64,000 nucleotides of DNA from a virus, in IMG/VR virus record IMGVR_UViG_3300045988_089680, positions 1 through 64,000 of that record. One strand, written 5' to 3'. The notes under the pieces were generated by a model. The model had not been told where the DNA came from and made no database searches. It saw nothing but the letters and a program-made list of their open reading frames with translations. Below, one piece after another: positions 4,044 through 24,047 of the stretch. How positions within the stretch are numbered: position 1 is the stretch's first letter; each line of letters opens with the position of its first letter. The position numbers and the translations under genes are program-made.

Positions 4044-5603
4044 ATGAAGCCCAAGACACCAAATCAGAAGAAAGCATACGATGCCCTGAACCTACGACTA
4101 ATTAAGTATATGTCGCAGGTTCAGGGCATTTATGATAGAATAGCAAACCAAATAGCTATTGCTGTTGATAGTACTAATTATGACGGCTCAGTTGAATTTA
4201 ATTTTAGAGATTATCCAGAATTAAATCAAACAGTCAAAAATTTAATGTCTGATTATGCAGGACAGATGAATAACCTCATCTATTCTGGAACTTCAAACGA
4301 GTGGAAGGAAAGTAATATAATGCAAGACCTTTTAGCTCGTAAGGTTCTTCGTGCTTATGATTTTGAGAAGGGTGGAGATAAGTATCAGAGATATTTTCAG
4401 CCTAATACAGATGCGCTTAAAGCATTCCAACAAAGAGTAGATAGAGGGATGAATCTCTCTCAAAAGCTCTGGTTACAGTCACAGGCATTGAAGAAAGAAA
4501 TGGAGCAAACCATTTCAGCTGCAATTGAAAGAGGACAATCTGCGGTAGTTCTTAGTAAGAGAATAAGCAAATATCTCTCGGACTTTCCCTCAATGAAAGC
4601 AGACTATGCAGAGAAATATGGAAAAGCGGTAAGCTGTCTTGACTGCCAATATGCTTCTATACGTTTGGCACGAACGGAGATAAACATGGCTTACAGAAAG
4701 GCAGAGCAGATAAGATGGAAACAATTTGACTTCATCTTGGGGTATGAGATTAAATTGAGTAAGCGCCATCCTGCACCAGACATCTGCGATGATCTGATTG
4801 GAATATACCCTAAAGACTTTGTTTTCTTAGGATGGCATCCTAACTGCATGTGTTATGTTGTGCCTATTGTGATGAGTGATGAAGAGTATTATAACCCCAA
4901 ACAAAGTTTAAATAGTTACAAGCCACTGCCAAGTGGTCTTGGTTCTTGGATAGATAAAAACTGTTTACGAATACTATCCTCAAACATAAGGGAAACTTTG
5001 CCATACTGGTTACGTGACAACAAAAGTGTTAGAGATTGTGCCATATTGATAGGAAAAGCGAGGGAAATAGGTAATGATTTTAAGAAAATAGGAGAAACTA
5101 TAGCAGAAAAGGTAGGAGGAATCGTAACACCTGTTAATTATAAATCGTTTTCCTCTATGTATAGAAAGCTTATTACAGAGAATATCGACATCACAGACAT
5201 CAAAGATGCATTGAGAAGTACAATTATTGTCGATAAAGACAAGTTAGAGGAAGTGGTTTTCAATTTAAAACATTTAGATACATTCCTCAGACACAAGGAA
5301 CAAAAGCCTGAAATGTTCAATGGGTATAGTGGAAATATCATTAATCTATCTATGCCCAACAATATTGTGGCAGAGATTCAAGTAAATACAGCCAAAATGA
5401 TTTATGCAAAAGAAACAGAATCAAATGCAAAAAGAATACTCGGAGAAGAGTTATGGAATAAGATACGTTCGGAAACTAATTTGCAAGGAGGATTAGGACA
5501 TAAATATTATGAAGAAATACGGATGTTAAACAAAGTTACAGACCTACCAAAGATAGAAAGACTAAAAAGATTCTCTGAAGAATATTATTCACATTTCAGA
5601 TAA
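4044..5603 (+). CDS. MuF/SPP1-gp7-like minor head protein fused to a C-terminal RelA/SpoT-like (small alarmone synthetase-type) toxin domain
   Basis: MuF motifs are LARTEINMAY and WHPNCMCY. The C-terminal ~170 aa carry RSH-synthetase-like motifs: YKSFSSMYRKL, DIKDALRSTIIV, NGYSGNIINL and AEIQVNTAKMIYAKE. Confidence 0.7.
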   Translation: MKPKTPNQKKAYDALNLRLIKYMSQVQGIYDRIANQIAIAVDSTNYDGSVEFNFRDYPELNQTVKNLMSDYAGQMNNLIYSGTSNEWKESNIMQDLLARKVLRAYDFEKGGDKYQRYFQPNTDALKAFQQRVDRGMNLSQKLWLQSQALKKEMEQTISAAIERGQSAVVLSKRISKYLSDFPSMKADYAEKYGKAVSCLDCQYASIRLARTEINMAYRKAEQIRWKQFDFILGYEIKLSKRHPAPDICDDLIGIYPKDFVFLGWHPNCMCYVVPIVMSDEEYYNPKQSLNSYKPLPSGLGSWIDKNCLRILSSNIRETLPYWLRDNKSVRDCAILIGKAREIGNDFKKIGETIAEKVGGIVTPVNYKSFSSMYRKLITENIDITDIKDALRSTIIVDKDKLEEVVFNLKHLDTFLRHKEQKPEMFNGYSGNIINLSMPNNIVAEIQVNTAKMIYAKETESNAKRILGEELWNKIRSETNLQGGLGHKYYEEIRMLNKVTDLPKIERLKRFSEEYYSHFR

Positions 5604-6329: not shown

Positions 6330-6346
6330 GTTATATGCCGTTTTCT
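6305..6346 (+). terminator. intrinsic terminator
   Basis: Perfect 12-bp stem, aacggcatataa / ttatatgccgtt, followed by TTTT. Confidence 0.6.
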
Positions 6347-6353
6347 ATACCTT

Positions 6354-6577
6354 CTAAGCTTGTCAAATATTCTCTCCATATACTTACACGTATTTTCATA
6401 ATCAGCGTGTCACAGCGAAAAACATACACTTACATTACTCCTTAGTCTAAAAGTTAGCTAAAGTTAAATTATTGATAATCAGTAAATTACGAGTTTATAA
6501 ATTTGGTCAATTCACAAAAAATGACTACCTTTGCAATAGATAATTAAAACAATAACAACTTAAAGATAAGAGCAATG
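6354..6577 (+). repeat. 224-bp regulatory/leader repeat, copy A (includes a promoter: TTTG at 6502-6505, TAccTTTG at 6526-6533)
   Basis: About 88% identical by eye to 16508-16732. It ends at the ATG of the downstream gene. Confidence 0.75.
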
Positions 6578-7726
6578 AATACGATTAAAACATTTATCCC
6601 ATCAGAATCAGTAGACGCATTCAAGAGGTTTGCTGATAAGACACGTAAGAACGTAAAAGACTTCGCTTACTCACTAGGTAAGCCTTATGAGAAGTTGTTT
6701 TATCATCCTGTAATCAATAAAGATGGAATTGGTGGACATAAAATCAAGGCATTCCATGAAGTATGTGACCTCACAATCAACATACCAGAGCAGAGCGGTT
6801 GGAAACTCCTTGCTACATACAAGGATGATGCTTTTACTCCTGCCGACCCGACCAAGGAACTTATCTTCAAGAACCATCAACACGGAGCAGACTACGGAAA
6901 ATGTGACTTTTGCGGTCATTGGTGCAAGAATGCCTATGTCGTTGAAAATGTGAAGACGGGCGAGGAATTACAAGTAGGTTGCGAATGTATCAAGAAGTTT
7001 GGTATCAATGATATGTACTACATATCCGACTTCACCAAAAAGCTCTATGAACTCTATGATTACAGGGGCAGTAATGCTACCGATGATGAGTTTGGTGACA
7101 TCGAGAAATGGGGCGGCAGAAAGGATTCAAGCTACAAGAATGCTATCCTTAAAACGAACCTCATCATGGCTGCCAAGGCTCAGTACGATATTTGCCCAGT
7201 CTATAAGAAAGGAACGAAAGTTGAACATGTCAGTTACCGCTCGGCAACTTTGGAGGGTATCGACACCATCTTGAATAGCGGTAAGTTAAAGGTGGATGAA
7301 GCTTACGTGAAGGCGGTTTGCGAGTTCGGTGCAAAGATTCAACCTAAGACCGAGTTTGAAGAAGATATGCTTGCCGTAGCAAAGAACTTCTATTGTTATC
7401 AAGCTCAAGAGGTCTATGCCTTCTTCCTAGTCAAAGCTTATGAAGATAGCTTGAAGCCAGAGTTGAACCTTCCGAAAGGATGCCAAGTTAAGGTGTGTGG
7501 CAAGGTCATTCAGAAGCGTTTCGAGGAGTCTTACTACGGAATGATGGAAATCAACACCATTCTTACTGACAAGGGTGTTACCTGTGAACGCTACGGAAAG
7601 GTACCTACCACCGAAGATAAGCGCACTTCATTCTACGCACTTGTAAAAGGGGTATTCAATGGAAAGGTTAGCCTAGACAGAGCTACCAAGAATCCTAAGA
7701 AAGGAATAGAAGTAATAAACATATAA
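6575..7726 (+). CDS. hypothetical protein with a Cys cluster (CDFCGHWC...GCEC)
   Basis: 383-aa ORF. Its start lies in the AAGAGCAATG context. Confidence 0.55.
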   Translation: MNTIKTFIPSESVDAFKRFADKTRKNVKDFAYSLGKPYEKLFYHPVINKDGIGGHKIKAFHEVCDLTINIPEQSGWKLLATYKDDAFTPADPTKELIFKNHQHGADYGKCDFCGHWCKNAYVVENVKTGEELQVGCECIKKFGINDMYYISDFTKKLYELYDYRGSNATDDEFGDIEKWGGRKDSSYKNAILKTNLIMAAKAQYDICPVYKKGTKVEHVSYRSATLEGIDTILNSGKLKVDEAYVKAVCEFGAKIQPKTEFEEDMLAVAKNFYCYQAQEVYAFFLVKAYEDSLKPELNLPKGCQVKVCGKVIQKRFEESYYGMMEINTILTDKGVTCERYGKVPTTEDKRTSFYALVKGVFNGKVSLDRATKNPKKGIEVINI

Positions 7727-8669: not shown

Positions 8670-9068
8670 ATGAAAATTTACACATCATACTTCGCAAACA
8701 GCAAGAAGTTACACAAGGATAATATTGTAGTTATAGGAATAGCTTTGTACCCTCCTAAGTGGTTTGCCGGACCTTCGTTGAAAATGGTATCACCATCATA
8801 CGACATCCTGCACAATTCACAAGACCATGAGGATTACAAAAAGCGTTTCTTCTCTGAAATATTAGCTCATAGAGACCCAAAAGTATTCCTCTCCAACATA
8901 GAGAGATTGGCAAATGGTAAAGATGTAGCTCTTTGCTGCTACGAAAAGCCTGACGATTTTTGCCATCGTCATTTGGTTGCAAAATGGATGAACGAGAAAT
9001 TAGGTCTTCAAATCCAAGAGTATGGGGTTTCTAGGAATCCAACATACATAGAACAGAGTTTGTTTTAG
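8670..9068 (+). CDS. DUF488-family protein
   Basis: 132 aa. The LCCYEKPDDFCHRHLVAKWM motif is typical of DUF488. Confidence 0.55.
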   Translation: MKIYTSYFANSKKLHKDNIVVIGIALYPPKWFAGPSLKMVSPSYDILHNSQDHEDYKKRFFSEILAHRDPKVFLSNIERLANGKDVALCCYEKPDDFCHRHLVAKWMNEKLGLQIQEYGVSRNPTYIEQSLF

Positions 9069-9147
9069 TAAAGTATATTAATATACCGTATGGTTGACAG
9101 CTCGGAAAGACGAGCATTTTTGCGTGTAAAGTAATTTGTTATATTAA

Positions 9148-9220
9148 GCGGAGATAGCTCAGTTAGCAGAGCGCAATGTGTCCATCATTGAGGTCGTTGG
9201 TGCAGTTCCAACTCTCCGCT
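9148..9220 (+). tRNA. atypical tRNA-Gly(UCC)-like gene
   Basis: Cloverleaf folded by hand. The acceptor stem is gcggaga/tctccgc, the anticodon stem caatg/cattg with loop tgTCCat, and the T stem gttgg/ccaac. Discriminator is T. Non-canonical features are G at position 33, a D loop lacking GG, and a T loop TGCAGTT instead of TTCRANT. Confidence 0.55.
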
Positions 9221-9235
9221 CTAAATACTAAGAGC

Positions 9236-10303
9236 ATGAAAGTTACAATAATTGGAGCAGGAAACATAGGAGTAGCTTTCGCAGCTGACCTTTCTATTAA
9301 GGGACATGAAGTTACACTCCTAAAAACATCTTCATACAAATCAGATGCCTTTGATAGACTTATCAAGAACGGCAACAGGGTTTTTCTTAAAGAAAAATCA
9401 ATTTATACAGAAACTGCAATCAAAGAGGTTTCTAAAGACCTCAGCAAGGTTGCAGACGCAGAAGTTATATTTTGTACTATTCAGAGTAACTTCTATGAAG
9501 GTATAGTAGAACGTATACATCAATACCTTCACAAGGATCAGATTGTAGTCTGTGTCTGTAGTTACGCATCTTCCTTCTATTTTGATAAACATTGCAGAAT
9601 ACTACCAATGTTAGTTGAAGCAACTGGTCCATATTTGGAAGGACGAGTAGAGTTGGATGATAAACCAAACGAAGTTGTTTTTCGTGTTGGTTATAGGCAT
9701 GAAGTCATTCCTGTTTCATGCTTTTCTAATCATGATACATGTATAGAGAAACTGCATAGAATTAGCAAAGGTTTTATAGGAAAATATTGCGTGCTTGAAT
9801 CTGCATTACTCAATCCAAATATGGTGTTGCATACGATAGGTTCAATTATGAGTATTCCGAGAATAGAATATTCAAAGGGAAATTTCTGTATGTATCGTGA
9901 AGCATACGCAAGAGGAAATGACTCCACCATCAATCTATTGATGAGACTTGACGAAGAAAAGATGAAAGTCTTAAAAAACTTGGGCTTTTTCAAAACAAGC
10001 GTATTTGAAGCAGGAGGTTTTAATATGTCAGACCCAATAGAGAGTTTGTATCGTTACTCAGAATCTAATGATAGAGCAATCAGCCCTACGTCTGTTCACT
10101 CACGTTACATCACAGAAGATGTTTCAGAGGGATTGGTACTGATGGAAAGTATTGCCAATCATATAGGCTTAGAGCTTCCGGTTACATCATCCCTCATTAC
10201 GCTTGCAAGTGTAGCTTTAGGGATTGACTTCCGAAAGACAGGAAGAACTATTCAGAGATTAGGTATTGTTAACGAAATAGATATGCTTCATGAATGTAGA
10301 TAG
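9236..10303 (+). CDS. NAD(P)-dependent opine (octopine/nopaline) dehydrogenase-family protein
   Basis: Rossmann motif MKVTIIGAGNIGVAFA, plus C-terminal RYITEDVSEGLVLMESIA typical of the octopine_DH helical domain. I moved the start off the tRNA-overlapping track ORF (9176). Confidence 0.6.
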   Translation: MKVTIIGAGNIGVAFAADLSIKGHEVTLLKTSSYKSDAFDRLIKNGNRVFLKEKSIYTETAIKEVSKDLSKVADAEVIFCTIQSNFYEGIVERIHQYLHKDQIVVCVCSYASSFYFDKHCRILPMLVEATGPYLEGRVELDDKPNEVVFRVGYRHEVIPVSCFSNHDTCIEKLHRISKGFIGKYCVLESALLNPNMVLHTIGSIMSIPRIEYSKGNFCMYREAYARGNDSTINLLMRLDEEKMKVLKNLGFFKTSVFEAGGFNMSDPIESLYRYSESNDRAISPTSVHSRYITEDVSEGLVLMESIANHIGLELPVTSSLITLASVALGIDFRKTGRTIQRLGIVNEIDMLHECR

Positions 10304-12368
10304 CGACATAAAAAACAGAACTTTCGGTATTGAAATCGAAATGTGCAATCTTGAAAGGGCGAAGGTAAATTTGCCCGAAGGTTACTCCTGGAGCAAGGAA
10401 GAGAGCATTGATAATACCGATTGTTCAAGCAATAAGCAGTTTGGTGGAGAGGTGAATACCCCTCCACTACATCTTTGCTGCCTAAAAGAGCTGCATGACC
10501 TCCGTTCTGTATACGAATCGATGGTTGTTGCAGGTGGCAAGATTAAGTGGAGTATAGATACTCATGTCCATATATATGTAGGCGATTTGACAGTCGATCA
10601 GCTAAAGAAAGTATATCTATTCTTTTATGTCTGCTATCCATATTTTAAAAGATATGCGAAAATTTCAGATTGGGATGAAAACATATTCAATGCAAAACCT
10701 ATTCCTACAGAAAAATATTTCGAAGGAGTAAAAAATGCACAGACGTTTGATGATTTACAAACTCTCTTCACTAATCAGTCTAAGAAGGGGTTCATACGTC
10801 ATGCAGTGAATATCTCGGCATATTTTAAGACAAAGACGATAGAATTCAGAACGTTTCATGCAACTGATGATTTCTATCGAGCTATGAATTGTGTGTATTC
10901 TGCATATCGCATATTCTATTACGCCATAAGCCACGAATTGGAAGATTATCAATCCATAACATCTTACAAGCAATTTTGTGAGGTTACGGGGCTTAAATAT
11001 GATACTCCAGAAGAGTTATGTCCACTCCTATACCAAGGGAATCCATATAGCGCAATAGAAGCTTTTATGACTATGCCTTTGCCCTACAATTCTAAAATGG
11101 TTTCAGTTCTGTATGATGCCATAAAAGCTAACGGACACAAGGAAATCTGCATAGTAAATGGCTTCATGTATTACTATGAGTTATTCTTCCTTGATAAGGT
11201 GGAAGTATCTATATACTGCCAAGATGCCTACTGCTATCTGCTCTATATGTTGGCAAATGGCAAAACATCACTTACATATAAGGATAAGCTTGCATGGTTA
11301 GAAGATTACAATAACCCGACACCATCAAGACAGCTTGCTTTGGCTCTTTATGCGGTGAAACTGCAAAAGTATTTCATGAGCGAATCGGCAAGAAATAGTG
11401 CCATCTTCGAAGCGTTGAAAATTAAGGCAAGGGAATCTATCGAGAAAACCGAGCAGGTAAATGAGCGATTGATGAGATTACTCACAACATGTGATTTCCA
11501 TGTCGGAACACTAGAAGAAGCCATTAAGAATAAGAAGGTAATCTTCTTTAATTACGGAAGAAAAGAGAAGAATCAGAAGAGAGCATTCAAACTCATTTCT
11601 GAGAACAGTGACTTAAAATCGGACTTTTCAGTCGCAAGAAACGACTATTACAATCTTGTGGAAAGTATTCCTAGCGATAGCTATTTCTACTATTTTAGCA
11701 ATAGTCCTTACCTGAGAAACTTGCATAAAATTGCTTTAATGGACAGTTCAACTGGTGAAAGGTGGGCGGCTGGAAGATACTTATACTGCAATAAGCCAAT
11801 TGTAAAAAAAAGTGTAAACACATCGTATACTTCGTTCAGAGATGAGTGCAACGAGATTGTCCCACCAGACAACTTAGAGATCAGCAACCCAAACTTGTTG
11901 AAAATAGAGGTAGTTTCACCACCGCTGCTGAAGAATCTTCAAAGAAAGTATATCAAAAAGATAGATCAAGTTTCCAGTGCGGTATTCCCATTTGTGGTTA
12001 AGTACGATAAATATACTCTTGGGGGATTTGGATTTACGTTATCTAAGTATGACAAATACGACTTGTTCCAAATTTCGGATTTTTGCACCAACAACGCAAT
12101 TCCAAGGTTGAGTAAGCTAATTCTTTACTGCGTTTTATCCGTAGGAGTACAGAAATATCTTAATAGGAGAATGCACAAGTTTATCAACAAGGTTCTATCT
12201 CTTGCTTACACACATAAGCCAGTGAGTATGAAATATCGTGGTGTGTACAAAAAAGTTAAAGAGCACTGCACATCATCTTATCTTGCTTACGAAGGAATAC
12301 TTGGTCTATACCCTACGAGTAAGGAAATCATCGAGAAATATCAAAAATCGTTGAAGAATGGAAAATGA
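10290..12368 (+). CDS. amidoligase (COOH-NH2 ligase, glutamine-synthetase-like fold) domain protein with a ~475-aa unknown C-terminal region
   Basis: N-terminal motifs FGIEIEM, GGEVNTPPL, THVHIY, RHAVNISAY and TIEFRTFHAT match Amidoligase_2. It overlaps the upstream gene by 14 nt. Confidence 0.6.
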   Translation: MNVDSDIKNRTFGIEIEMCNLERAKVNLPEGYSWSKEESIDNTDCSSNKQFGGEVNTPPLHLCCLKELHDLRSVYESMVVAGGKIKWSIDTHVHIYVGDLTVDQLKKVYLFFYVCYPYFKRYAKISDWDENIFNAKPIPTEKYFEGVKNAQTFDDLQTLFTNQSKKGFIRHAVNISAYFKTKTIEFRTFHATDDFYRAMNCVYSAYRIFYYAISHELEDYQSITSYKQFCEVTGLKYDTPEELCPLLYQGNPYSAIEAFMTMPLPYNSKMVSVLYDAIKANGHKEICIVNGFMYYYELFFLDKVEVSIYCQDAYCYLLYMLANGKTSLTYKDKLAWLEDYNNPTPSRQLALALYAVKLQKYFMSESARNSAIFEALKIKARESIEKTEQVNERLMRLLTTCDFHVGTLEEAIKNKKVIFFNYGRKEKNQKRAFKLISENSDLKSDFSVARNDYYNLVESIPSDSYFYYFSNSPYLRNLHKIALMDSSTGERWAAGRYLYCNKPIVKKSVNTSYTSFRDECNEIVPPDNLEISNPNLLKIEVVSPPLLKNLQRKYIKKIDQVSSAVFPFVVKYDKYTLGGFGFTLSKYDKYDLFQISDFCTNNAIPRLSKLILYCVLSVGVQKYLNRRMHKFINKVLSLAYTHKPVSMKYRGVYKKVKEHCTSSYLAYEGILGLYPTSKEIIEKYQKSLKNGK

Positions 12369-13086
12369 AGATAGATGGAAATACGCAAAAGTTGATATAA
12401 ACCTCATAGATGAGGTAGAAATCAATGCAAACGAAATGTCGGGTGAAGACTTCGCCCAACTAACAGACAACATTGCTAAGTCTGGATTGAGTAGTGTGCC
12501 TACCTGTATCAAGAAGGATAATGGTAGATACATCATGATCAGCGGTAATCATCGTTTGAGGGCTTGCAAGAAACTGCACTATAAAATGCTTGGCATCTTA
12601 TATGTAGAAGAGAGCGAGATTACAAATGATGAAGCTATTGCTATTGAATTATCTCACAACTCCCTTCATGGTGAAGCTAATGTTAGCATTTTGAAGAAGT
12701 TGTTTGCATCAATTCAATCTATCGACTTTAAGAAGTTTGCCCATGTGAACATCGACGAGATTAAGCCAATAAGCACAGAGGGTATAGATGTATATGCCAT
12801 GCAGGAGAATTTCGTATTCACCATCATCCTCTACCCTAGTTCATTTGCTAGTCTGGACACATTGTATGGAGACATTCGTGAGCAAGCTCGCAAAAGTGAT
12901 GCTCTAGTTCTAGCTTCCGAAGAAGATAACGAGAAGACCCTGCTTAAGATTCAACAGGACATAGGTAAGGAGTTTGGCATAAAATCTCCAAGTATCTCAT
13001 TTGCCAAATTGCTAGAGTTAGCGAGTGAACGTTTAATCGAAATAAAGGAAGGAGAAAAAGAAAATGATTTGGAGCATAACAAGTAA
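12358..13086 (+). CDS. ParB/Srx-fold (ParB N-terminal domain-like) protein
   Basis: Motifs YIMISGNHRLRACKKL and IELSHNSLHGE. It overlaps the upstream gene by 11 nt. Confidence 0.6.
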   Translation: MENEDRWKYAKVDINLIDEVEINANEMSGEDFAQLTDNIAKSGLSSVPTCIKKDNGRYIMISGNHRLRACKKLHYKMLGILYVEESEITNDEAIAIELSHNSLHGEANVSILKKLFASIQSIDFKKFAHVNIDEIKPISTEGIDVYAMQENFVFTIILYPSSFASLDTLYGDIREQARKSDALVLASEEDNEKTLLKIQQDIGKEFGIKSPSISFAKLLELASERLIEIKEGEKENDLEHNK

Positions 13087-13927
13087 AGAAGAGATGGAGA
13101 GCTATGGAATTTCTTCCGTCTTCAAATATTATCGAGAAGCCTTAGGAAAAGAAAATGTCAAACTAGCTGTTGTAGATGAAAACGATAAGCTAGACTTCTT
13201 ACAAAAGGAAGATGTGGCATTACTTAGAACCGCAAGTGAATCTCTCATCAAGACTATCCGAGCAAAAGGTGTAAAAACAACTGCAGAGGATTTCTCTAAA
13301 TACGAATTGGTTAAGGATAAGGAAAAGGTCTTCCGTTTCCTTTGTTTTTGCGGTATTAGGGCACCGAAGCAATATCAAAACCATTTATCATCATTACAAG
13401 AAGGTAAGACATATTTTGTTAAACCTAGATATGGCAGTGATAGCTTTGGTATATCAGAGAAAAGCATCTGTCGTACCCCCAAAAAGGTAATAGAACAGAT
13501 GAGATACATTAAAGAAGAGCTTGGAATGGAAAGTATAGTTGAGGAGTATATTGCTGGCTCTGATTGCACAGTAACGTGCATTAATAACTGCACAACAAAC
13601 GAGCTACTTCTGTGTTCAATCTCGATTGATTGCGACGAAACCAATGGCATCCAAACACGAGACTGTAAGGTTGGTTTTAAAGAATGCTGTTCAGCAATAA
13701 ATGATGTTGAGTTAAATCGTTTGGCAAGCGAAATATTCCATTACTTAGAATTAAAGTCTCACGCAAGAATTGATTTTCGCAAGGGAATAGATGGTAGATA
13801 TTATCCTATAGATATCAATCTGCTTCCTGGGCTTGGTCCATTAGACCATCTTTCGAAATCACTTTTGTTGTGCAAGAATATGTCGTATATAGATGCTTTG
13901 AAAGCAGTCATAGCATCTGCAAGTTAG
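13064..13927 (+). CDS. ATP-grasp ligase (D-Ala-D-Ala ligase-like)
   Basis: Motifs YFVKPRYGSDSFGI, VEEYIAGSDCTV and ARIDFRKG..YPIDINLLPGLGP. It overlaps the upstream gene by 23 nt. Confidence 0.6.
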   Translation: MIWSITSKEEMESYGISSVFKYYREALGKENVKLAVVDENDKLDFLQKEDVALLRTASESLIKTIRAKGVKTTAEDFSKYELVKDKEKVFRFLCFCGIRAPKQYQNHLSSLQEGKTYFVKPRYGSDSFGISEKSICRTPKKVIEQMRYIKEELGMESIVEEYIAGSDCTVTCINNCTTNELLLCSISIDCDETNGIQTRDCKVGFKECCSAINDVELNRLASEIFHYLELKSHARIDFRKGIDGRYYPIDINLLPGLGPLDHLSKSLLLCKNMSYIDALKAVIASAS

Positions 13928-13938
13928 AAAGGTTGATT

Positions 13939-14286
13939 ATGGCAAAGGTAAGAAGAACAGAATTAAAAAAGATTGCCGCTGCTTACGAAAAGAAGGGCGG
14001 CAATATGGCTGCTACGGCAGTAGCTTTGGGCATTACACGCCAAGCCTTATATAACTGGAGAAAAGAGGATGAGAAGTTAGCCAAGATGTTGGACGATATA
14101 GATGAAGGCATTCTTGACTTTACTGAAAGCAAGTTGGTTGAAAAGGTGAACGAAGGCAACCTAACTGCAATAATCTTCCTTCTGAAAACCAAGGGCAAGA
14201 AGCGTGGCTATGTCGAGCAAGTAGATAACAGATTAGTAGAAAATCCATTCGAGAAGTTAATGAAGGAGCTTCCCGATGATGATTAG
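13939..14286 (+). CDS. terS: terminase small subunit
   Basis: HTH segment AATAVALGITRQALYNWRKE plus IIFLLKTKGKKRGY. It lies just upstream of terL. I chose the ATG at 13939 rather than the track start at 13870. Confidence 0.65.
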   Translation: MAKVRRTELKKIAAAYEKKGGNMAATAVALGITRQALYNWRKEDEKLAKMLDDIDEGILDFTESKLVEKVNEGNLTAIIFLLKTKGKKRGYVEQVDNRLVENPFEKLMKELPDDD

Positions 14287-14816: not shown

Positions 14817-16331
14817 ATGTTTGAACAGAAGGCTAAAAAGAAAATGATTGCATGGCGCAATGATTGGTGTCTCTTCGCCAAAGAAGTCTTGAAGGCTCAC
14901 CTTGACGAAGAGCAAAAGGCTATATTGCGTTCTGTTCAAAAGAATAAAATGACAACGGTAGCCAGTGGAACTGCAAGGGGTAAGGATTACATCGCTGCCG
15001 TAGCTGCTTTATGTTTCCTCTACCTCACTCCTCGCTTTGGTAAGGATGGCAGTTTGGAAAAGAATACCAAGATTGCCCTTACGGCGCCGACAGGAAGACA
15101 GGTAACAAACATCATGATTCCAGAGGTAGCACGTTTATACAAGAAGGCCGGCTTTCTTCCCGGTCGTTTGTTGGCGGATGGTATCAGAACCAATTATGAG
15201 GAATGGTATTTGACTGGTTTCAAGTCTTCCGACGACAACATAGAGGCATGGTCGGGATTTCACGCAGTAAACACCATGTTCATCGTAACCGAAGCTTCGG
15301 GTATCTCAGATACCATCTATAATGCAATCGAAGGTAACCTACAGGGAAACTCTCGATTGCTATTGGTATTCAACCCTAACGTTACAACGGGATATGCAGC
15401 CAATTCCATGAAGTCTCCTCGTTTCAAGAAGTTCAGACTATCATCCCTTAACGCAGAGAATGTAGTCAGAAAAAAAATTATTATTCCTGGTCAAGTTGAC
15501 TATGAATGGGTAGCTGACAAGGTCTCAGCATGGGCACAGAAAATCAGAAAGTCTGAGTTTGATGAAGGTCGTGGCGACTTTATTTGGGAAGGAGGCTATT
15601 ATACTCCCAACGACCTCTTCCGCGTTAAGGTTCTCGGTATATTCCCGAAGGTTTCAGAAGATACTCTCATCCCTTACGAATGGTGTGAGATTGCACATAA
15701 ACGATGGGAAGAGCTCAAAGAAAGTGGATTCATCACCCATAAACCAGTACGCTTAGGTGTCGATGTAGCGGGTATGGGTCGCGATAGGTCTTGCTTCATT
15801 CCAAGACAAGGGAATTATGTATCAGAAATAAGATGTCATAACTCAGGAGGAAGGGCAGATCACATGGCAGTCGCAGGTCAAGTAGCTAACTATCTTAAAA
15901 CGGATCACCGTAACAAGGCATTCATTGATACAATAGGTGAGGGAGCGGGTGTTTACTCACGATTGATAGAACAGAATATACTAACAGCATTCTCCTGTAA
16001 GTTTTCTGAAGGAGTGAGAAACAAACATGATGTCACTGGTTGTTACACATTCGCTAATATGAGAGCCTATTTATTTTGGTGTATCCGTGATTGGCTTAAT
16101 CCAAAGAATGGCTTTTTTGCAGCTCTTCCACCAGATGAAGAGTTAGACCAAGAATTGTGCGAGCCACATTGGTTCTTTCAGTCTGATGGCTCCATCATCA
16201 TAGAGCCGAAAGAAGAAATCAAAAAACGCCTCAAACGCTCTCCCGATAAGATGGACGCACTTGCTAATACATTCTATCCATATGACTATGATAAGGATAA
16301 TGATATTCAACTATTAAATAGTGTTGTATAG
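14817..16331 (+). CDS. terL: terminase large subunit
   Basis: 504 aa. Features are a Walker A-like SGTARGKD, ALTAPTGRQ, a Walker B-like FIVTEASG, and the nuclease-domain motif GVDVAGMGRDRS. Confidence 0.85.
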   Translation: MFEQKAKKKMIAWRNDWCLFAKEVLKAHLDEEQKAILRSVQKNKMTTVASGTARGKDYIAAVAALCFLYLTPRFGKDGSLEKNTKIALTAPTGRQVTNIMIPEVARLYKKAGFLPGRLLADGIRTNYEEWYLTGFKSSDDNIEAWSGFHAVNTMFIVTEASGISDTIYNAIEGNLQGNSRLLLVFNPNVTTGYAANSMKSPRFKKFRLSSLNAENVVRKKIIIPGQVDYEWVADKVSAWAQKIRKSEFDEGRGDFIWEGGYYTPNDLFRVKVLGIFPKVSEDTLIPYEWCEIAHKRWEELKESGFITHKPVRLGVDVAGMGRDRSCFIPRQGNYVSEIRCHNSGGRADHMAVAGQVANYLKTDHRNKAFIDTIGEGAGVYSRLIEQNILTAFSCKFSEGVRNKHDVTGCYTFANMRAYLFWCIRDWLNPKNGFFAALPPDEELDQELCEPHWFFQSDGSIIIEPKEEIKKRLKRSPDKMDALANTFYPYDYDKDNDIQLLNSVV

Positions 16332-16475: not shown

Positions 16476-16521
16476 CTAAAGCTTATCTAAAGCTTATCTA
16501 AGCCTATCTAAGCTTGTCTAA
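16476..16521 (+). repeat. tandem 10-11-nt repeat (ctaaagcttat x4, degenerate)
   Basis: Four head-to-tail units lie at the 5' edge of leader copy B. Copy A has a single unit. Confidence 0.7.
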
Positions 16522-16732
16522 TAAATTCTCCATATACTTACACATATTTTCATAATCGGTGTGTCACAGCGAAAAATACACACCTACATTACTCCTTGGT
16601 TTAAAAGTTAGCTAAAGTTAAACTATTGGTTATCAGTAAATTACAAGTTTTGAAATTTGGTCAATAGCAAAAAAATGACTACCTTTGCAACAGATAATTA
16701 AAACAATAACAACTTAAAGTTAAAGAGCAATG
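16508..16732 (+). repeat. 224-bp regulatory/leader repeat, copy B (includes promoter TAccTTTG)
   Basis: Aligns with 6354-6577 and ends at the ATG at 16730. Confidence 0.75.
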
Positions 16733-16993
16733 AAAAGATATTATTTGATTTCGTCGGAATATGACATTAAAAAACGTGAAGCAATCCTTAGTACTATTAA
16801 GGATAAAGCAATTGCTTCTTACGCAGACCTCTCAAATGACGAATACAATAGTTTTGCTTTCACAGAGGATGAAGGTAGAGAGGTGTATAAAAAGTTGATG
16901 CAAAAGTATCATTCAAGTGCGGCTTTCTTTGGAGATTCATACGAGGAGGAAGAAATTAAGGAAATGGGGCTTGATGAGTATATAACATTTTAA
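16730..16993 (+). CDS. hypothetical protein
   Basis: 87-aa ORF. Its start lies in the AAGAGCAATG context. Confidence 0.45.
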   Translation: MKRYYLISSEYDIKKREAILSTIKDKAIASYADLSNDEYNSFAFTEDEGREVYKKLMQKYHSSAAFFGDSYEEEEIKEMGLDEYITF

Positions 16994-23194: not shown

Positions 23195-23304
23195 ACCCAA
23201 GTAGCTCAGTTGGTTAGATTGCGAGACCAAATCCTGTCCTGTAAAATCCAGTTGGTCTTTAAAAAGATGGTTGAGAGACGCAGGTTCGAGTCCTGCCTTG
23301 GGTG
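23195..23304 (+). ncRNA. 110-nt aberrant tRNA-like element
   Basis: Perfect acceptor stem acccaag/cttgggt, a canonical 5' D region tagctcagttggtta, and a canonical T arm gcagg-TTCGAGT-cctgc. The middle 60 nt contain no 5-bp/7-nt anticodon arm (I checked every register). Instead there is a 7-bp stem agaccaa/ttggtct with a 21-nt loop. Confidence 0.4.
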
Positions 23305-23324
23305 CTAACAAATTTTATTGGCTT

Positions 23325-24047
23325 ATGAAGAATGACATCGAAATTGGCACAAAGATAGCCATGGTGTTAACAGATACACCTATAGGCATACAGGTAGGTA
23401 GAAGACACATGTTTATCTACCCTCAGACTTTAGGCAAAATGTATTTGACTGCTCCATTGATTAAGCAGATGGGAATCAAAGATGATAACCTAAAACTGAA
23501 TCCACTCATAGAAGCACTCCGTGTAGTAAGTGAGAACCGAAGTATCTGCTGTAAGCTAATAGCCTATCATACCCTTCAGAAGAAATCCGATATGCTAAGT
23601 TCACGCATACTGAAGGCAAGGGAAAACATCATCTTCAAGTTCTGTGATAACGATGATATAGCTACCCTTCTCATCACCATACTCTCAGACAACAAACTTC
23701 ATGACATTATCACAGAATGTGGTATAGACAAGCAAGCACAACGCATGGAGAAAATAAACAGAGCCAAAGACTCCAGTAATCAGTATATATTTGGTGGAAG
23801 AACCATTTGGGGCTCTCTCATTGATGCAGCTTGCGAGAGATACAAGTGGACCCTTGACTATGTTCTGTGGGAAATATCATATAACAACCTCACACTCATG
23901 ATGAAGGACAAGATAACTTCCGTCTATCTATCTGACGAGGAGAGAAAGAAGGCTCACATTCCATCGGCAACAGAGAAGGTCTTTAGCGGAGATAACAAAG
24001 AGGACATCATGGAGCTGATCAGACAGAGCGAAGAGAATCCAATTTAA
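23325..24047 (+). CDS. putative tail assembly chaperone
   Basis: 240 aa immediately upstream of the tape measure. I moved the start off the tRNA-like overlap. Confidence 0.3.
   Translation: MKNDIEIGTKIAMVLTDTPIGIQVGRRHMFIYPQTLGKMYLTAPLIKQMGIKDDNLKLNPLIEALRVVSENRSICCKLIAYHTLQKKSDMLSSRILKARENIIFKFCDNDDIATLLITILSDNKLHDIITECGIDKQAQRMEKINRAKDSSNQYIFGGRTIWGSLIDAACERYKWTLDYVLWEISYNNLTLMMKDKITSVYLSDEERKKAHIPSATEKVFSGDNKEDIMELIRQSEENPI

What the first reader, a model, noticed from the sequence alone, without database searches (positions are those of the whole stretch)
9148..9220. Non-canonical tRNA-Gly(UCC)-like gene with an altered elbow, placed immediately upstream of the ligase operon
The hand-folded cloverleaf has perfect stems. 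Its G1-C72/C2-G71/G3-C70 pairs, U73 and UCC anticodon fit tRNA-Gly identity. It deviates at three normally invariant places. Position 33 is G rather than U, the D loop (agttagca) lacks the G18G19 pair, and the T loop reads G-TGC-A instead of G-TTC-R. From memory, the non-proteinogenic Staphylococcus tRNA-Gly(UCC) species that feed peptidoglycan bridge synthesis show the same kind of changes (GUGC in place of GTPsiC, altered D loop) and avoid EF-Tu. A tRNA of this type next to amide-bond-forming enzymes could be a non-ribosomal aminoacyl donor. Alternatively it could resist host anticodon nucleases, or it could be a pseudogene.
Basis: partly seen in the sequence, partly recalled or inferred. 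Interest (0 to 1): 0.65.

Follow-up and report, generated by a model that had tools for sequence, protein, structure and literature searches.

The report
Phage glycine tRNA for DNA modification
This odd glycine tRNA gene is real, is conserved in related phages, and sits at the head of a probable DNA-modification operon, so it most likely hands glycine to a Mom-like enzyme that decorates phage DNA instead of serving protein synthesis.

Summary
The tRNA at 9148-9220 (+) is real: ARAGORN calls tRNA-Gly(UCC) and Rfam scores it 47 bits. All three reported deviations are present. The UGC T loop (G55) and the D loop without GG (A18 G19) are invariant or nearly so in 25 distinct relatives, with compensatory stem changes, so this is not a pseudogene. 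G33 is private to this copy.

In relatives, loop positions 32-34 drift (anticodons ACC, UCC, CCC; loops of 5, 6 or 8 nt). The glycyl-tRNA synthetase identity set stays fixed: G1-C72, C2-G71, G3-C70, U73, C35, C36.

The gene lies 15 nt upstream of an operon whose 692-aa protein joins an amidoligase, a Dam-like domain and a GNAT-like domain. The closest solved structure to that GNAT domain is phage Mu Mom, which transfers glycine from Gly-tRNAGly to adenine in DNA.

Gly-like tRNAs, often unable to decode, also sit just upstream of distant members of this GNAT family. These include the cultured Mycobacterium phage Jeon and Gordonia phage Clawz.

Best reading: a phage-encoded, non-proteinogenic tRNAGly dedicated to tRNA-dependent DNA modification. 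I found no report of this. The chemistry, charging and EF-Tu avoidance are inferred, not shown.

The parts
9148..9220 (+). Non-canonical tRNA-Gly(UCC) gene, 'type A': G33, A18 G19 D loop, U54 G55 C56 T loop, G58, U73, no encoded CCA.
   Evidence: ARAGORN. Rfam RF00005 at 47.4 bits. My own covariance model R1 at 78.5 bits. Conservation and covariation in 25 relatives.
9100..9125 (+). Terminator-like hairpin (GCUCG GAAAGA CGAGC plus a U run) that closes the upstream DUF488 gene. It places the tRNA in the downstream transcription unit.
   Evidence: Terminator scan and the sequence itself. Function not shown.
8670..9068 (+). DUF488-N3a protein (132 aa), a conserved upstream neighbour of the tRNA and the GNAT gene.
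   Evidence: Pfam PF22751, E 1.2e-12. Synteny in 68 related loci. A DUF488 C-terminal motif also lies upstream in the distant Dam-like1+GNAT family.
9236..10303 (+). Octopine/opine dehydrogenase-like NAD(P) oxidoreductase (355 aa). Its start codon is 15 nt after the tRNA. The gene is optional among relatives.
   Evidence: Pfam Octopine_DH, E 2.6e-28. Absent from part of the related loci.
10290..12368 (+). 692-aa fusion protein: Amidoligase_2 (aa 39-198), DAM-like-phage2 (aa 240-419), GNAT-phage-like (aa 537-687).
   Evidence: Pfam. PHROG 2443. A 90%-identical protein is named 'GNAT-like putative antirestriction protein [Segatella copri]' by NCBI.
11847..12365 (+). GNAT-like domain (aa 520-692), the proposed Gly-tRNA-dependent transferase. 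Family-wide motif TTAFTxKPVSMKYRG.
   Evidence: AlphaFold2 model with pLDDT 93.5. The best PDB matches are Mu Mom 8bv8 chains B and A. Conserved motif.
10953..11894 (+). Middle region (aa 222-535) containing the Dam-like domain, the proposed DNA/adenine-presenting module.
   Evidence: Pfam PF22556, E 1.4e-89. AlphaFold2 model with pLDDT 82. The top 8 Foldseek hits are E. coli Dam or DpnM, but weak: E 5e-3, TM 0.33-0.44.
12358..13086 (+). ParB N-terminal-like protein (242 aa), a conserved partner downstream of the GNAT gene.
   Evidence: Pfam ParB_N is weak and PHROG 7405 scores 3e-66. Synteny. A ParB-like gene also follows the GNAT gene in Gordonia phage Clawz.
13064..13927 (+). ATP-grasp ligase (287 aa). 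Relatives carry three divergent alleles.
   Evidence: Pfam Dala_Dala_lig_C and ATP-grasp_3. Allele identities of 90%, 54% and 36%.

Best explanation
The gene encodes a phage-made, non-proteinogenic tRNAGly that acts as the glycine carrier for a DNA-modification enzyme.

Proposed steps:
1. The tRNA is transcribed at the head of the operon (inferred).
2. Host RNase P, a 3' processing enzyme and the CCA-adding enzyme mature it (inferred; CCA is not encoded).
3. Host GlyRS charges it, because every known bacterial glycine identity element is retained (the retention is shown; the charging is inferred).
4. The altered elbow (A18/G55, G58), the lack of a G51-C63 pair and the drifting anticodon loop keep it out of ribosomal translation (inferred by analogy with staphylococcal NP-tRNAGly).
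5. The C-terminal GNAT-like domain of the 692-aa protein takes the glycyl group from its 3' end and transfers it to phage DNA. The acceptor is most likely N6 of adenine presented by the fused Dam-like domain, as Mu Mom does with host Gly-tRNAGly (inferred).
6. The amidoligase, ATP-grasp and opine-dehydrogenase-like enzymes may then elaborate the adduct. The result would protect the DNA from restriction (speculative).
For: **The tRNA is functional and constrained**
- Across 25 distinct relatives, 97% of stem cells pair and 6 pairs show changes on both sides. No shuffle out of 500 reached the observed pairing or covariation score, and slid controls pair at 38-50%.
- The acceptor stem, U54 G55 C56 and A14 G15 U16 are invariant.

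**Decoding is relaxed but charging identity is kept**
- Close relatives have anticodon loops AUACCAU (most frequent, giving anticodon ACC), AAACCAU, AUUCCAU, UUUCCAU, GUUCCAU and UGUCCAU.
- More distant relatives have 8-nt, 6-nt (AUUCCA) or 5-nt loops.
- G1-C72, C2-G71, C35, C36 and U73 are invariant in the 18-sequence alignment of Gly-like tRNAs, and G3 is nearly so. These are the bacterial Gly identity elements (PMC9976931).
- CCA is encoded in many distant relatives.

**Linkage to the enzyme gene**
- 76 of 80 loci encoding relatives of the 692-aa protein have a Gly or Gly-like tRNA just upstream.
- A search starting from the tRNA pattern recovered the same synteny in 68 of 80 listed loci.
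- In the distant Dam-like1+GNAT family (26-41% identity to the query), 31 of 41 tRNAs found are Gly-like. 28 of 73 loci have one less than 1.2 kb upstream on the same strand, often 16-90 nt from the start codon. A covariance model adds about nine compact tRNA-like RNAs directly upstream.
- Cultured phages show the same arrangement. In Mycobacterium phage Jeon the annotated tRNA-Gly(tcc) gene 67 abuts gene 68. Gordonia phage Clawz has an unannotated Gly-like tRNA 108 nt upstream of gp29.
- Loci carrying Mu-type Mom have no tRNA-Gly nearby.

**The enzyme**
- The GNAT domain model (pLDDT 93.5) has Mu Mom 8bv8 as its top two PDB hits.
- Mom uses Gly-tRNAGly to modify N6-adenine in double-stranded DNA (PMC13219725).
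- The fused domain is Dam-like.

**Precedent for a dedicated non-proteinogenic tRNAGly with a UGC T loop:** PMC7826273.
Against: - No experiment shows expression, charging, EF-Tu avoidance or a DNA adduct.
- The GNAT-like domain is not a sequence-level member of the Mom family. It has no Pfam PF25680 hit, BLASTP is not significant, and hhalign of its profile against Mu Mom is not significant.
- The lead of Mom over generic GNATs in Foldseek is small: E 6e-5 against 2.5e-4, TM about 0.5.
- About half of the distant GNAT-family loci have no tRNA of their own, so the tRNA is an accessory.
- This copy and most close relatives keep a 7-nt loop, and most keep U33, so some decoding cannot be excluded.
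- In some rumen relatives the same site holds a mixed tRNA cluster (Asn, Met, Ile/Ser, Arg, Lys).
- The 6-nt-loop Gly-like tRNAs keep G51-C63, so a weak EF-Tu T stem is not universal.
Confidence: 0.65

Rival explanations
1. It is a defence-escape tRNA. The phage supplies a tRNAGly whose anticodon loop and elbow differ from the host's. It would survive host tRNA-targeting immunity (anticodon nucleases, GNAT toxins such as TacT, acceptor-end modifiers such as FaRel2) and keep translation going.
For: - Positions 32-34 are the most variable part of the molecule, as expected under an arms race at a cleavage site.
- Phage tRNAs that neutralise tRNA-cleaving defences are known (PARIS and T5 tRNA, cited in PMC12839542; PMC12409363).
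- Toxins acting on tRNAGly are known: TacT (PMC9976931) and FaRel2 (PMC11559606).
Against: - Relatives have 5-, 6- and 8-nt anticodon loops, A33 or G33, and A34. Such tRNAs could not rescue translation.
- The isotype is always Gly, and the position is always next to the GNAT-family gene, across Bacteroidota, actinobacterial and environmental phages. Escape from host-specific nucleases does not predict that.
- The acceptor end, which TacT and FaRel2 recognise, is the most conserved part.
Confidence: 0.12
2. It is an ordinary phage tRNA that supplements glycine decoding (codon-usage compensation). Its position next to the operon is incidental, because this site is a tRNA island.
For: - Phage tRNA genes are common.
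- Rumen relatives carry several other tRNAs at the same site.
- The window copy has a 7-nt loop and a UCC anticodon.
Against: - The wobble base changes among phages whose flanking DNA is 84-95% identical. ACC, the dominant anticodon, is by general knowledge almost never used for decoding in bacteria.
- G55 removes the universal pseudouridine-55 site, and G18 is replaced by A18.
- 31 of the 41 tRNAs found next to a distant gene family are Gly-like.
Confidence: 0.1
3. It is not used as a tRNA at all. It could be a decaying pseudogene, an attachment-site remnant, or a tRNA-shaped processing signal that lets RNase P or RNase Z cut the 5' end of the operon mRNA.
For: - It lies 15 nt from the first start codon.
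- Several relatives have heavily remodelled 66-nt tRNA-like bodies.
- CCA is not encoded here.
Against: - Compensatory changes keep all four stems.
- C35, C36, U73 and the first acceptor pairs are conserved, which a mere processing signal does not need.
- Many distant relatives encode CCA.
- No integrase gene lies beside it. The neighbours are DUF488 and the opine-dehydrogenase-like gene.
Confidence: 0.05
4. The tRNA is an aminoacyl donor, but for a product other than DNA. The GNAT, amidoligase and ATP-grasp enzymes might build a peptide-like small molecule, or modify a host or phage protein or the cell wall. Precedents are Fem transferases, the L/F-transferase and PacB.
For: - GNAT-fold enzymes that use aminoacyl-tRNA act on peptidoglycan, proteins, lipids and natural products (PMC13219725 Fig. 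5 legend).
- The operon holds two ATP-dependent amide ligases and an opine-dehydrogenase-like enzyme.
Against: - The GNAT domain is fused family-wide to Dam-like domains (27 and 14 of 55 representatives).
- Its best structural match is Mom.
- A ParB-like gene and the terminase genes are its neighbours.
- NCBI names a 90%-identical protein a putative antirestriction protein.
Confidence: 0.08

Closest known systems
Staphylococcal non-proteinogenic tRNAGly(UCC) isoacceptors NP1-NP3 (S. aureus; Ia/Ib of S. epidermidis), glycine donors for FmhB/FemA/FemB
   Same: - A dedicated tRNAGly with UGC in place of UUC in the T loop, so no pseudouridine 55.
- An altered D loop without G18G19.
- A/U pairs at 50-64 and 51-63 in place of G51-C63.
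- Glycine identity retained.
- Proposed to feed a GNAT-fold transferase outside translation (PMC7826273).
   Different: - Encoded by a phage and co-located with its enzyme gene.
- The partner is a Mom-like or phage GNAT-like domain, not a Fem transferase.
- The presumed acceptor is DNA, not peptidoglycan.
- 49-65 is G-C here, against A-U in NP tRNAs.
- The anticodon drifts in relatives (ACC, CCC, odd loop sizes), whereas NP tRNAs keep UCC.
- Rietmeyer et al. find the NP lineage only in staphylococci, so this is convergent and not the same lineage.
Phage Mu Mom (Pfam PF25680; PDB 8bv8), a Gly-tRNAGly-dependent N6-adenine modifying GNAT
   Same: - GNAT fold, and the best PDB match of the window's GNAT domain.
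- Phage-encoded, with antirestriction naming by NCBI for a close relative.
- Uses, or is inferred to use, Gly-tRNAGly (PMC13219725).
   Different: - No detectable sequence homology.
- Mom is a single-domain enzyme that scavenges host tRNAGly, and Mu-like loci carry no tRNA-Gly.
- Here the GNAT is fused to Dam-like and amidoligase domains. It comes with its own tRNA, DUF488, ParB-like, ATP-grasp and opine-dehydrogenase-like genes. That suggests a more elaborate product.
Phage tRNAs that counter tRNA-targeting defences (T5 tRNALys against PARIS, T5 tRNATyr against retron Ec78, mycobacteriophage anticodon-loop variants)
   Same: Phage-encoded tRNAs with anticodon-loop differences from canonical tRNAs.
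   Different: Those tRNAs must still decode. Here the family includes loops of 5, 6 and 8 nt, non-U33 and A34, and the gene is tied to one enzyme family and one isotype.
Other aminoacyl-tRNA-dependent GNAT-fold transferases (FemX, MprF, L/F-transferase, PacB)
   Same: Use of a charged tRNA as an activated amino acid donor by a GNAT-fold domain.
   Different: - None is known to have a dedicated tRNA gene in the same operon, apart from the loose staphylococcal case.
- Their acceptors are not nucleic acids.

Membership tests
Canonical bacterial elongator tRNA-Gly | Cloverleaf with 7/4/5/5-bp stems and a 7-nt anticodon loop | tested here: met
   ARAGORN and Rfam alignments. All 21 pairs are Watson-Crick.
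Canonical bacterial elongator tRNA-Gly | Glycine identity set: G1-C72, C2-G71, G3-C70, U73, C35, C36 | tested here: met
   All are present. G1, C2, C35, C36, C70, G71, C72 and U73 are invariant across Gly-like relatives, and G3 is nearly so. The set follows PMC9976931.
Canonical bacterial elongator tRNA-Gly | U33 (U-turn) | tested here: not met
   G33 in the window. Relatives have U33 or A33.
Canonical bacterial elongator tRNA-Gly | Elbow: G18 G19 in the D loop, U54-U55(pseudouridine)-C56 and A58 in the T loop | tested here: not met
   A18 G19, U54 G55 C56 and G58. G55 is invariant in 25 relatives.
Staphylococcal non-proteinogenic tRNAGly (NP1-3) | UGC/UGU in place of UUC in the T loop | tested here: met
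   UGC. Defined in PMC7826273.
Staphylococcal non-proteinogenic tRNAGly (NP1-3) | Low-affinity EF-Tu T-stem pairs A49-U65, U50-A64, A51-U63 | tested here: inconclusive
   The window has G49-C65, U50-A64 and U51-A63. Two of the three pairs are A/U and there is no G51-C63, but 49-65 differs. No binding energy was computed.
Staphylococcal non-proteinogenic tRNAGly (NP1-3) | Weak EF-Tu·GTP binding and no ribosomal decoding | not testable with these tools
   Needs binding and translation assays.
Staphylococcal non-proteinogenic tRNAGly (NP1-3) | Donor for Fem-family transferases, and membership of the staphylococcal lineage | tested here: not met
   No Fem gene is present; the neighbour is GNAT-phage-like PF22559. 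The host is Segatella. The NP lineage is reported only in staphylococci. No tRNA tree was built.
Mom family (PF25680), applied to the partner enzyme | Sequence match to the Mom profile | tested here: not met
   No PF25680 hit for the window protein or for any of 55 family representatives. BLASTP and hhalign are not significant. Mu Mom itself matches at 2.4e-75.
Mom family (PF25680), applied to the partner enzyme | GNAT fold most similar to Mom | tested here: met
   Foldseek ranks 1 and 2 are 8bv8 chains B and A, E 6.3e-5 and 1.5e-4, TM 0.52. The margin over other GNATs is small.
Mom family (PF25680), applied to the partner enzyme | Catalytic Arg and Ser (Mom R111, S124) and the helix-turn-helix-like insertion | tested here: inconclusive
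   The family has invariant D597, K609, S646, K648, Y649 and R650 and a nearly invariant S608 in window numbering. No residue-level structural superposition was available.
Mom family (PF25680), applied to the partner enzyme | Uses Gly-tRNAGly to modify N6-adenine of double-stranded DNA | not testable with these tools
   Inferred only from the linkage to tRNA-Gly and the Dam-like fusion.
Defence-escape phage tRNAs | The variant anticodon loop still supports decoding | tested here: not met
   Family members have 5-, 6- and 8-nt loops, non-U33 and A34. The window copy keeps a 7-nt loop but has G33.

The most novel reading that the evidence does not exclude
Many unrelated phages, of Bacteroidota, Actinobacteria and soil and water hosts, may carry a 'cofactor gene'. 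This is a tRNAGly-like RNA that has lost the ability to decode but keeps GlyRS identity. It sits in an operon with a Dam-like/GNAT enzyme that aminoacylates DNA.

In the Segatella phages, the glycyl adduct may then be extended by an amidoligase, an ATP-grasp ligase and an opine dehydrogenase into a peptide-like or opine-like DNA hypermodification not yet described.

This would be the first case of a virus evolving its own non-proteinogenic tRNA for nucleic-acid chemistry, with minimal 66-nt versions that define what GlyRS and the transferase need.
Probability: 0.5. Interest if true: 0.9.

Novelty: new variant of a known kind. Interest (0 to 1): 0.82.

Why it matters
Mom was only recently shown to take glycine from charged tRNA to modify DNA, and it was thought to scavenge host tRNA.

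A phage-encoded tRNAGly that is built for this chemistry and unfit for translation would show that tRNA-dependent DNA modification is widespread. It would also show that the demand is strong enough to select a private donor pool, in parallel with the staphylococcal cell-wall tRNAs.

It provides a simple genomic marker, a Gly-like tRNA next to a GNAT-phage-like gene, for finding new DNA hypermodifications.

The natural minimal tRNAGly variants would be useful for studying GlyRS, EF-Tu and transferase recognition.

Cultured phages (Jeon, Clawz) make the idea directly testable.

It also warns annotators that odd phage tRNAs should not be written off as pseudogenes or as codon-usage helpers.

Tried and rejected
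- **Megablast of the operon against the GenBank phage collection:** no match.
- **PDB sequence search:** nothing for the 692-aa protein and nothing useful for DUF488.
- **BLASTP and hhalign of the GNAT domain against Mu Mom:** not significant. The Mom homologues retrieved from IMG/VR were all at least 85% identical to Mu Mom, so no deeper Mom profile could be built.
- **Single-protein searches with distant representatives:** one locus each. An alignment query was needed.
- **Diversity-generating retroelement idea for the variable loop:** rejected. The window holds no second copy or template. The five differences from L001 match the overall 95% DNA identity of the flanks.
- **Link between the DruA-like protein next to the L109 tRNA and the GNAT family:** only a weak local hhalign match, E 0.03. 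Left open.
- **Bacteroidota-type promoter upstream of the tRNA:** no convincing match by eye. The sigma-70 scan is at background level.
- **Literature searches for a phage tRNAGly tied to DNA modification:** nothing found.
Full report
**1. The observation**

ARAGORN reports a single tRNA in the 64-kb window, tRNA-Gly(tcc) at 9148-9221 on the + strand. The Rfam tRNA model scores 9148-9220 at 47.4 bits against a gathering score of 29, E 4.8e-9, when the region is scanned with permissive filters. The fast-filter scan of the whole window missed it.

From the sequence the cloverleaf is: GCGGAGA UA GCUC AGUUAGCA GAGC G CAAUG UGUCCAU CAUUG AGGUC GUUGG UGCAGUU CCAAC UCUCCGC U. All 21 pairs are Watson-Crick. 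The fold is somewhat more stable than shuffles (-25.7 kcal/mol, z = -2.4).

- G33.
- A D loop with A18 G19 and no GG.
- A T loop reading U54 G55 C56 A57 G58.

G1-C72, C2-G71, G3-C70, U73, C35 and C36 are present. These are the bacterial glycine identity set (PMC9976931). CCA is not encoded.

**2. The setting**

The window is phage-like. All sizeable genes run on one strand. A small terminase gene lies at 13936-14286 and a large terminase gene at 14817-16331.

A terminator-like hairpin at 9100-9115 closes the upstream DUF488-N3a gene. The tRNA follows, and 15 nt after it the first start codon of an operon. The operon encodes:
- an octopine/opine-dehydrogenase-like protein;
- a 692-aa fusion of Amidoligase_2, DAM-like-phage2 (PF22556) and GNAT-phage-like (PF22559) domains;
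- a ParB-N-like protein;
- an ATP-grasp ligase.

A protein 90% identical to the fusion is named by NCBI 'GNAT-like putative antirestriction protein [Segatella copri]'. The host is therefore probably Segatella (Prevotella). GenBank phages hold no close DNA relative.

**3. The tRNA is conserved, not decaying**

Eighty IMG/VR loci encode relatives of the fusion protein at 67-100% identity. In 76 of them ARAGORN finds one or two Gly or Gly-like tRNAs just upstream of the operon.

Two types occur:
- **Type A** is the window's kind. It has the invariant acceptor stem GCGGAGA/UCUCCGC, the D loop AGUUAGYA and the T loop UGCRRYU.
- **Type B**, in tandem in most relatives but absent from the window, has a canonical GG D loop and a UUCGA T loop.

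An alignment of 25 distinct type A sequences shows U54, G55, C56, A14, G15, U16, the D stem and nearly all of the acceptor stem invariant. The named cloverleaf pairs in 97% of cells. Six pairs show changes on both sides, four in the anticodon stem and two in the T stem. No shuffle out of 500 reached the observed pairing or covariation score, and slid controls pair at 38-50%.

The UGC T loop and the GG-less D loop persist through T-stem replacements: GUUGG/CCAAC, GUAGG/CCUAC, GAAGG/CCUUC and GUGGG/CCUGC. These two deviations are therefore selected features.

G33 is not. Among the 17 distinct 73-nt type A sequences compared position by position (139 matched gene copies gave 23 distinct sequences), only the window has it.

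**4. What varies is the decoding end**

In close relatives the anticodon loop reads AUACCAU (the commonest, giving anticodon ACC), AAACCAU, AUUCCAU, UUUCCAU, GUUCCAU or UGUCCAU.

The rumen clade has an 8-nt loop, or a 6-bp stem with a 6-nt loop.

C35, C36 and A37 stay, with one exception. So selection maintains what GlyRS reads and has let go of what the ribosome reads. This pattern is expected for a tRNA that must be charged but need not decode.

The flanks of these phages are 84-95% identical to the window. The changes of wobble base therefore cannot reflect changed codon usage.

**5. The link to the GNAT-family gene is deep**

Starting from the tRNA alone, I scanned IMG/VR with the pattern GGTGCNNNTCCNNCTCTCCGC. 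This recovered the same synteny in 68 of the 80 listed loci: DUF488, tRNA, optional opine dehydrogenase, fusion protein, ParB-like, ATP-grasp, terminase. Most of the rest were chance matches.

One, L109, is an unrelated phage. There a UGC-type tRNA-Gly(ACC) with encoded CCA lies between a DNA polymerase gene and a DruA/DUF4338-like gene.

A search of 1.8 billion representative proteins with the GNAT region found 245 clusters. Their architectures are about 680 aa (amidoligase + Dam-like2 + GNAT), about 430-450 aa (Dam-like1 + GNAT) and solo GNAT. They share a motif TTAFTxKPVSMKYRG.

I fetched 80 loci of the Dam-like1+GNAT group, which are 26-41% identical to the query. In these and two further loci:
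- ARAGORN found 41 tRNAs: 31 Gly-like, 7 Cys, and one each of Gln, Ser and Arg. Twenty of the Gly-like ones have a 6-nt loop AUUCCA.
- 28 of the 73 loci with enough upstream sequence have a Gly-like tRNA less than 1.2 kb upstream on the same strand, many of them 16-90 nt from the start codon.
- A covariance model built from 18 Gly-like tRNAs added about nine compact tRNA-like RNAs directly upstream of the gene, and a few Gly-like tRNAs elsewhere in other loci.

The compact RNAs are about 66 nt. They have a GCGGGGA-type acceptor stem, a 3-4-bp D hairpin, a 9-bp anticodon stem with a 5-nt loop containing ACC, CCC or UCC, no variable loop, a canonical T arm, U73 and encoded CCA. One relative, L190, again has G33 with ACC.

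About half of the loci have no tRNA of their own. These presumably use host Gly-tRNA.

Counting independent lineages, I estimate at least 13 of about 15 with an adjacent tRNA have a Gly-like one. If Gly makes up about 6% of phage tRNAs (my assumption), the binomial chance is of order 1e-14. This is a hand estimate, not a tool result.

By contrast, 43 loci with Mu-type Mom have no tRNA-Gly nearby.

**6. Cultured examples**

A translated search of GenBank phages with the GNAT domain hit two groups:
- Mycobacterium phages Jeon, GodPhather, Megabear, Cepens, Taptic, PR, D12 and Argie;
- Gordonia phages Clawz, Soos, Sting and Jollymon.

In Jeon, the annotated tRNA-Gly(tcc) gene 67 abuts gene 68, which carries the GNAT-like match.

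In Clawz, the covariance model finds an unannotated Gly-like tRNA (UCC, aberrant T and D loops) 108 nt upstream of gp29, and gp30 is ParB-like.

**7. The enzyme**

The GNAT-like domain (aa 520-692) gave a confident AlphaFold2 model, pLDDT 93.5 and pTM 0.90. Against the PDB, its two best matches are chains B and A of 8bv8, phage Mu Mom S124A (E 6.3e-5 and 1.5e-4, TM 0.52). Generic GNATs follow from E 2.5e-4.

Mom transfers glycine from Gly-tRNAGly to N6 of adenine in double-stranded DNA. It accepts all host isoacceptors, and its authors suggest it recognises the acceptor end (PMC13219725). That paper does not mention phage-encoded tRNAGly.

At the sequence level the domain is not a Mom-family member:
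- no PF25680 hit;
- BLASTP not significant;
- hhalign not significant.

I therefore say it probably works like Mom, not that it is a Mom.

The middle domain model (pLDDT 82) has E. coli Dam and DpnM as its top eight hits. The scores are weak (E 5e-3, TM 0.33-0.44). This agrees with the Pfam name and with a role in presenting adenine, but does not prove it.

**8. Comparison with the staphylococcal tRNAs**

Rietmeyer et al. (PMC7826273) confirm the following for NP1-3:
- They carry UGC or UGU in place of UUC in the T loop.
- They lack pseudouridine.
- They bind EF-Tu·GTP poorly.
- They have A49-U65, U50-A64 and A51-U63, where proteinogenic tRNAGly have G49-U65, C50-G64 (or U50-A64) and G51-C63.
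- FmhB prefers them through determinants in the D and T arms.

The window tRNA shares the UGC loop, the GG-less D loop and A/U pairs at 50-64 and 51-63. It has G49-C65. The resemblance is functional and convergent, since the NP lineage is reported only in staphylococci.

Weak EF-Tu binding here is an inference. It is not universal in the wider family, because the 6-nt-loop tRNAs keep G51-C63.

**9. Mechanism proposed**

Shown:
- A conserved, structured tRNAGly-like gene with a relaxed decoding loop and retained GlyRS identity.
- Operon-level linkage to a GNAT-fold, Mom-like domain fused to a Dam-like domain.
- The same linkage in many unrelated phages.

Inferred:
- Co-transcription with the operon, and processing and CCA addition by host enzymes.
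- Glycylation by host GlyRS.
- Exclusion from translation.
- Glycyl transfer to DNA adenine.
- A benefit from a private donor pool that neither drains nor competes with translation late in infection.

Speculative: the amidoligase, ATP-grasp and opine-dehydrogenase-like enzymes elaborate the adduct. From general knowledge, opine dehydrogenases condense an amino group with a 2-oxo acid, and the glycine/pyruvate enzyme makes strombine. The opine dehydrogenase gene is optional, and the ATP-grasp gene comes in three divergent alleles while its neighbours stay 95-99% identical. This suggests modular diversification of the product.

**10. Rivals**

- **Escape from tRNA-targeting defences.** This would explain the variable positions 32-34. 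It does not explain the non-decoding loop sizes, the constant Gly isotype or the constant neighbour.
- **Ordinary codon supplementation.** This is contradicted by the wobble drift, the ACC anticodon and the G55 elbow.
- **Pseudogene or mere processing signal.** This is contradicted by covariation, conserved C35/C36/U73 and the encoded CCA in relatives.
- **Donor for a non-DNA product.** This remains possible but is disfavoured by the Dam-like fusions, the Mom match and the ParB and terminase context.

**11. Novelty**

Searches of the paper library found the Mom work, the staphylococcal work and work on defence-escape tRNAs. None reports phage-encoded Gly-like tRNAs tied to GNAT-phage-like or Dam-like genes.

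I rate this a new variant of known kinds. It combines a non-proteinogenic tRNAGly with tRNA-dependent DNA modification, here in a single phage operon.

**12. Verdict**

- Confidence in the donor model: 0.65.
- Interest: 0.82.
- The model can be tested directly with Jeon and Clawz.

Noticed in passing
window 23195-23304 (+): A second tRNA-like element. Rfam scores it 36.3 bits, with a good acceptor stem, D arm and T arm but a 52-nt insert in the anticodon region. Standard ARAGORN misses it. With introns allowed, ARAGORN calls tRNA-Trp(cca) with an intron. It overlaps the start of ORF 23271-24047.
   Followed up: partly
window 6341-6579 and 16494-16734: A direct repeat of about 240 bp at 88% identity. 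It brackets the block from ORF 6575 through DUF488, the tRNA, the modification operon and both terminase genes. It could be a repeated regulatory region or a module boundary.
   Followed up: partly
L002:1310-1384 and the same position in about 60 related loci: Relatives carry a second, tandem tRNA-Gly(CCC or ACC) with canonical loops but conserved mismatches: A51 opposite C, A or G at position 63, never U, and G5 opposite G68. Position 51-63 is the main EF-Tu specificity pair, so this tRNA may also be kept away from EF-Tu. The window lacks this gene.
   Followed up: partly
L109:8536-8609 (-) and L109:7407-8525 (-): An unrelated phage contig (IMGVR_UViG_3300005428_000691) has a UGC-type tRNA-Gly(ACC) with encoded CCA. 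It lies between a family-B DNA polymerase gene and a 372-aa protein matching Pfam DruA/DUF4338. Two 2OG-Fe(II) oxygenase-like genes and a RimK-type ATP-grasp gene are nearby. hhalign to the GNAT family gives only a weak local match (E 0.03).
   Followed up: partly
L202, L204-L213 and L226, directly upstream of the GNAT-family gene (for example L208:4748-4813): Compact tRNA-like RNAs of about 66 nt: a Gly-type acceptor stem, a tiny D hairpin, a 9-bp anticodon stem with a 5-nt loop containing ACC, CCC or UCC, no variable loop, a canonical T arm, U73 and encoded CCA. ARAGORN mostly misses or mislabels them; L211 was called tRNA-Ser(act).
   Followed up: partly
L243:5319-5392 and the same position in L251, L256, L257, L259, L260 and L262: An odd tRNA-Cys(GCA) with a 3-bp D stem, a 6-bp anticodon stem and a T loop UUUGAAU. 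It sits just upstream of the 6-nt-loop Gly-like tRNA in one gut phage lineage.
   Followed up: no
window 8670-9068; upstream of the GNAT-family gene in L197, L201, L218-L221, L244 and L250: A DUF488 (N3a subclade) gene is a conserved upstream neighbour of the tRNA and GNAT genes, even in the distant Dam-like1+GNAT family. Its C-terminal motif FCHR..LVA.WL can be read in the upstream DNA. Its role is unknown, but it probably belongs to the system.
   Followed up: partly
L057, L059, L061, L063, L067, L072 and L073 (about 4300-4920): Rumen-type relatives hold a small tRNA cluster at the same site: Asn, Met with an initiator-like C1 mismatch, and a tRNA with the acceptor stem GCAGU/ACUGC whose anticodon reads Ile, Ser, Asn or Arg in different contigs. 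Four of these loci have no Gly-like tRNA.
   Followed up: no
window 13064-13927 and the homologous gene in related loci: The ATP-grasp gene exists as three divergent alleles, about 90%, 54% and 36% identical to the window's. The flanking ParB-like and small terminase genes stay 95-100% identical. The opine dehydrogenase gene is present or absent. This points to cassette-like swapping of tailoring enzymes.
   Followed up: no
window 9148-9220: The Rfam gathering-threshold scan of the whole 64-kb window did not report this tRNA, although it scores 47.4 bits when the 600-base region is scanned. The non-canonical T loop probably fails the fast sequence filters, so such tRNAs may be systematically under-annotated.
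   Followed up: yes
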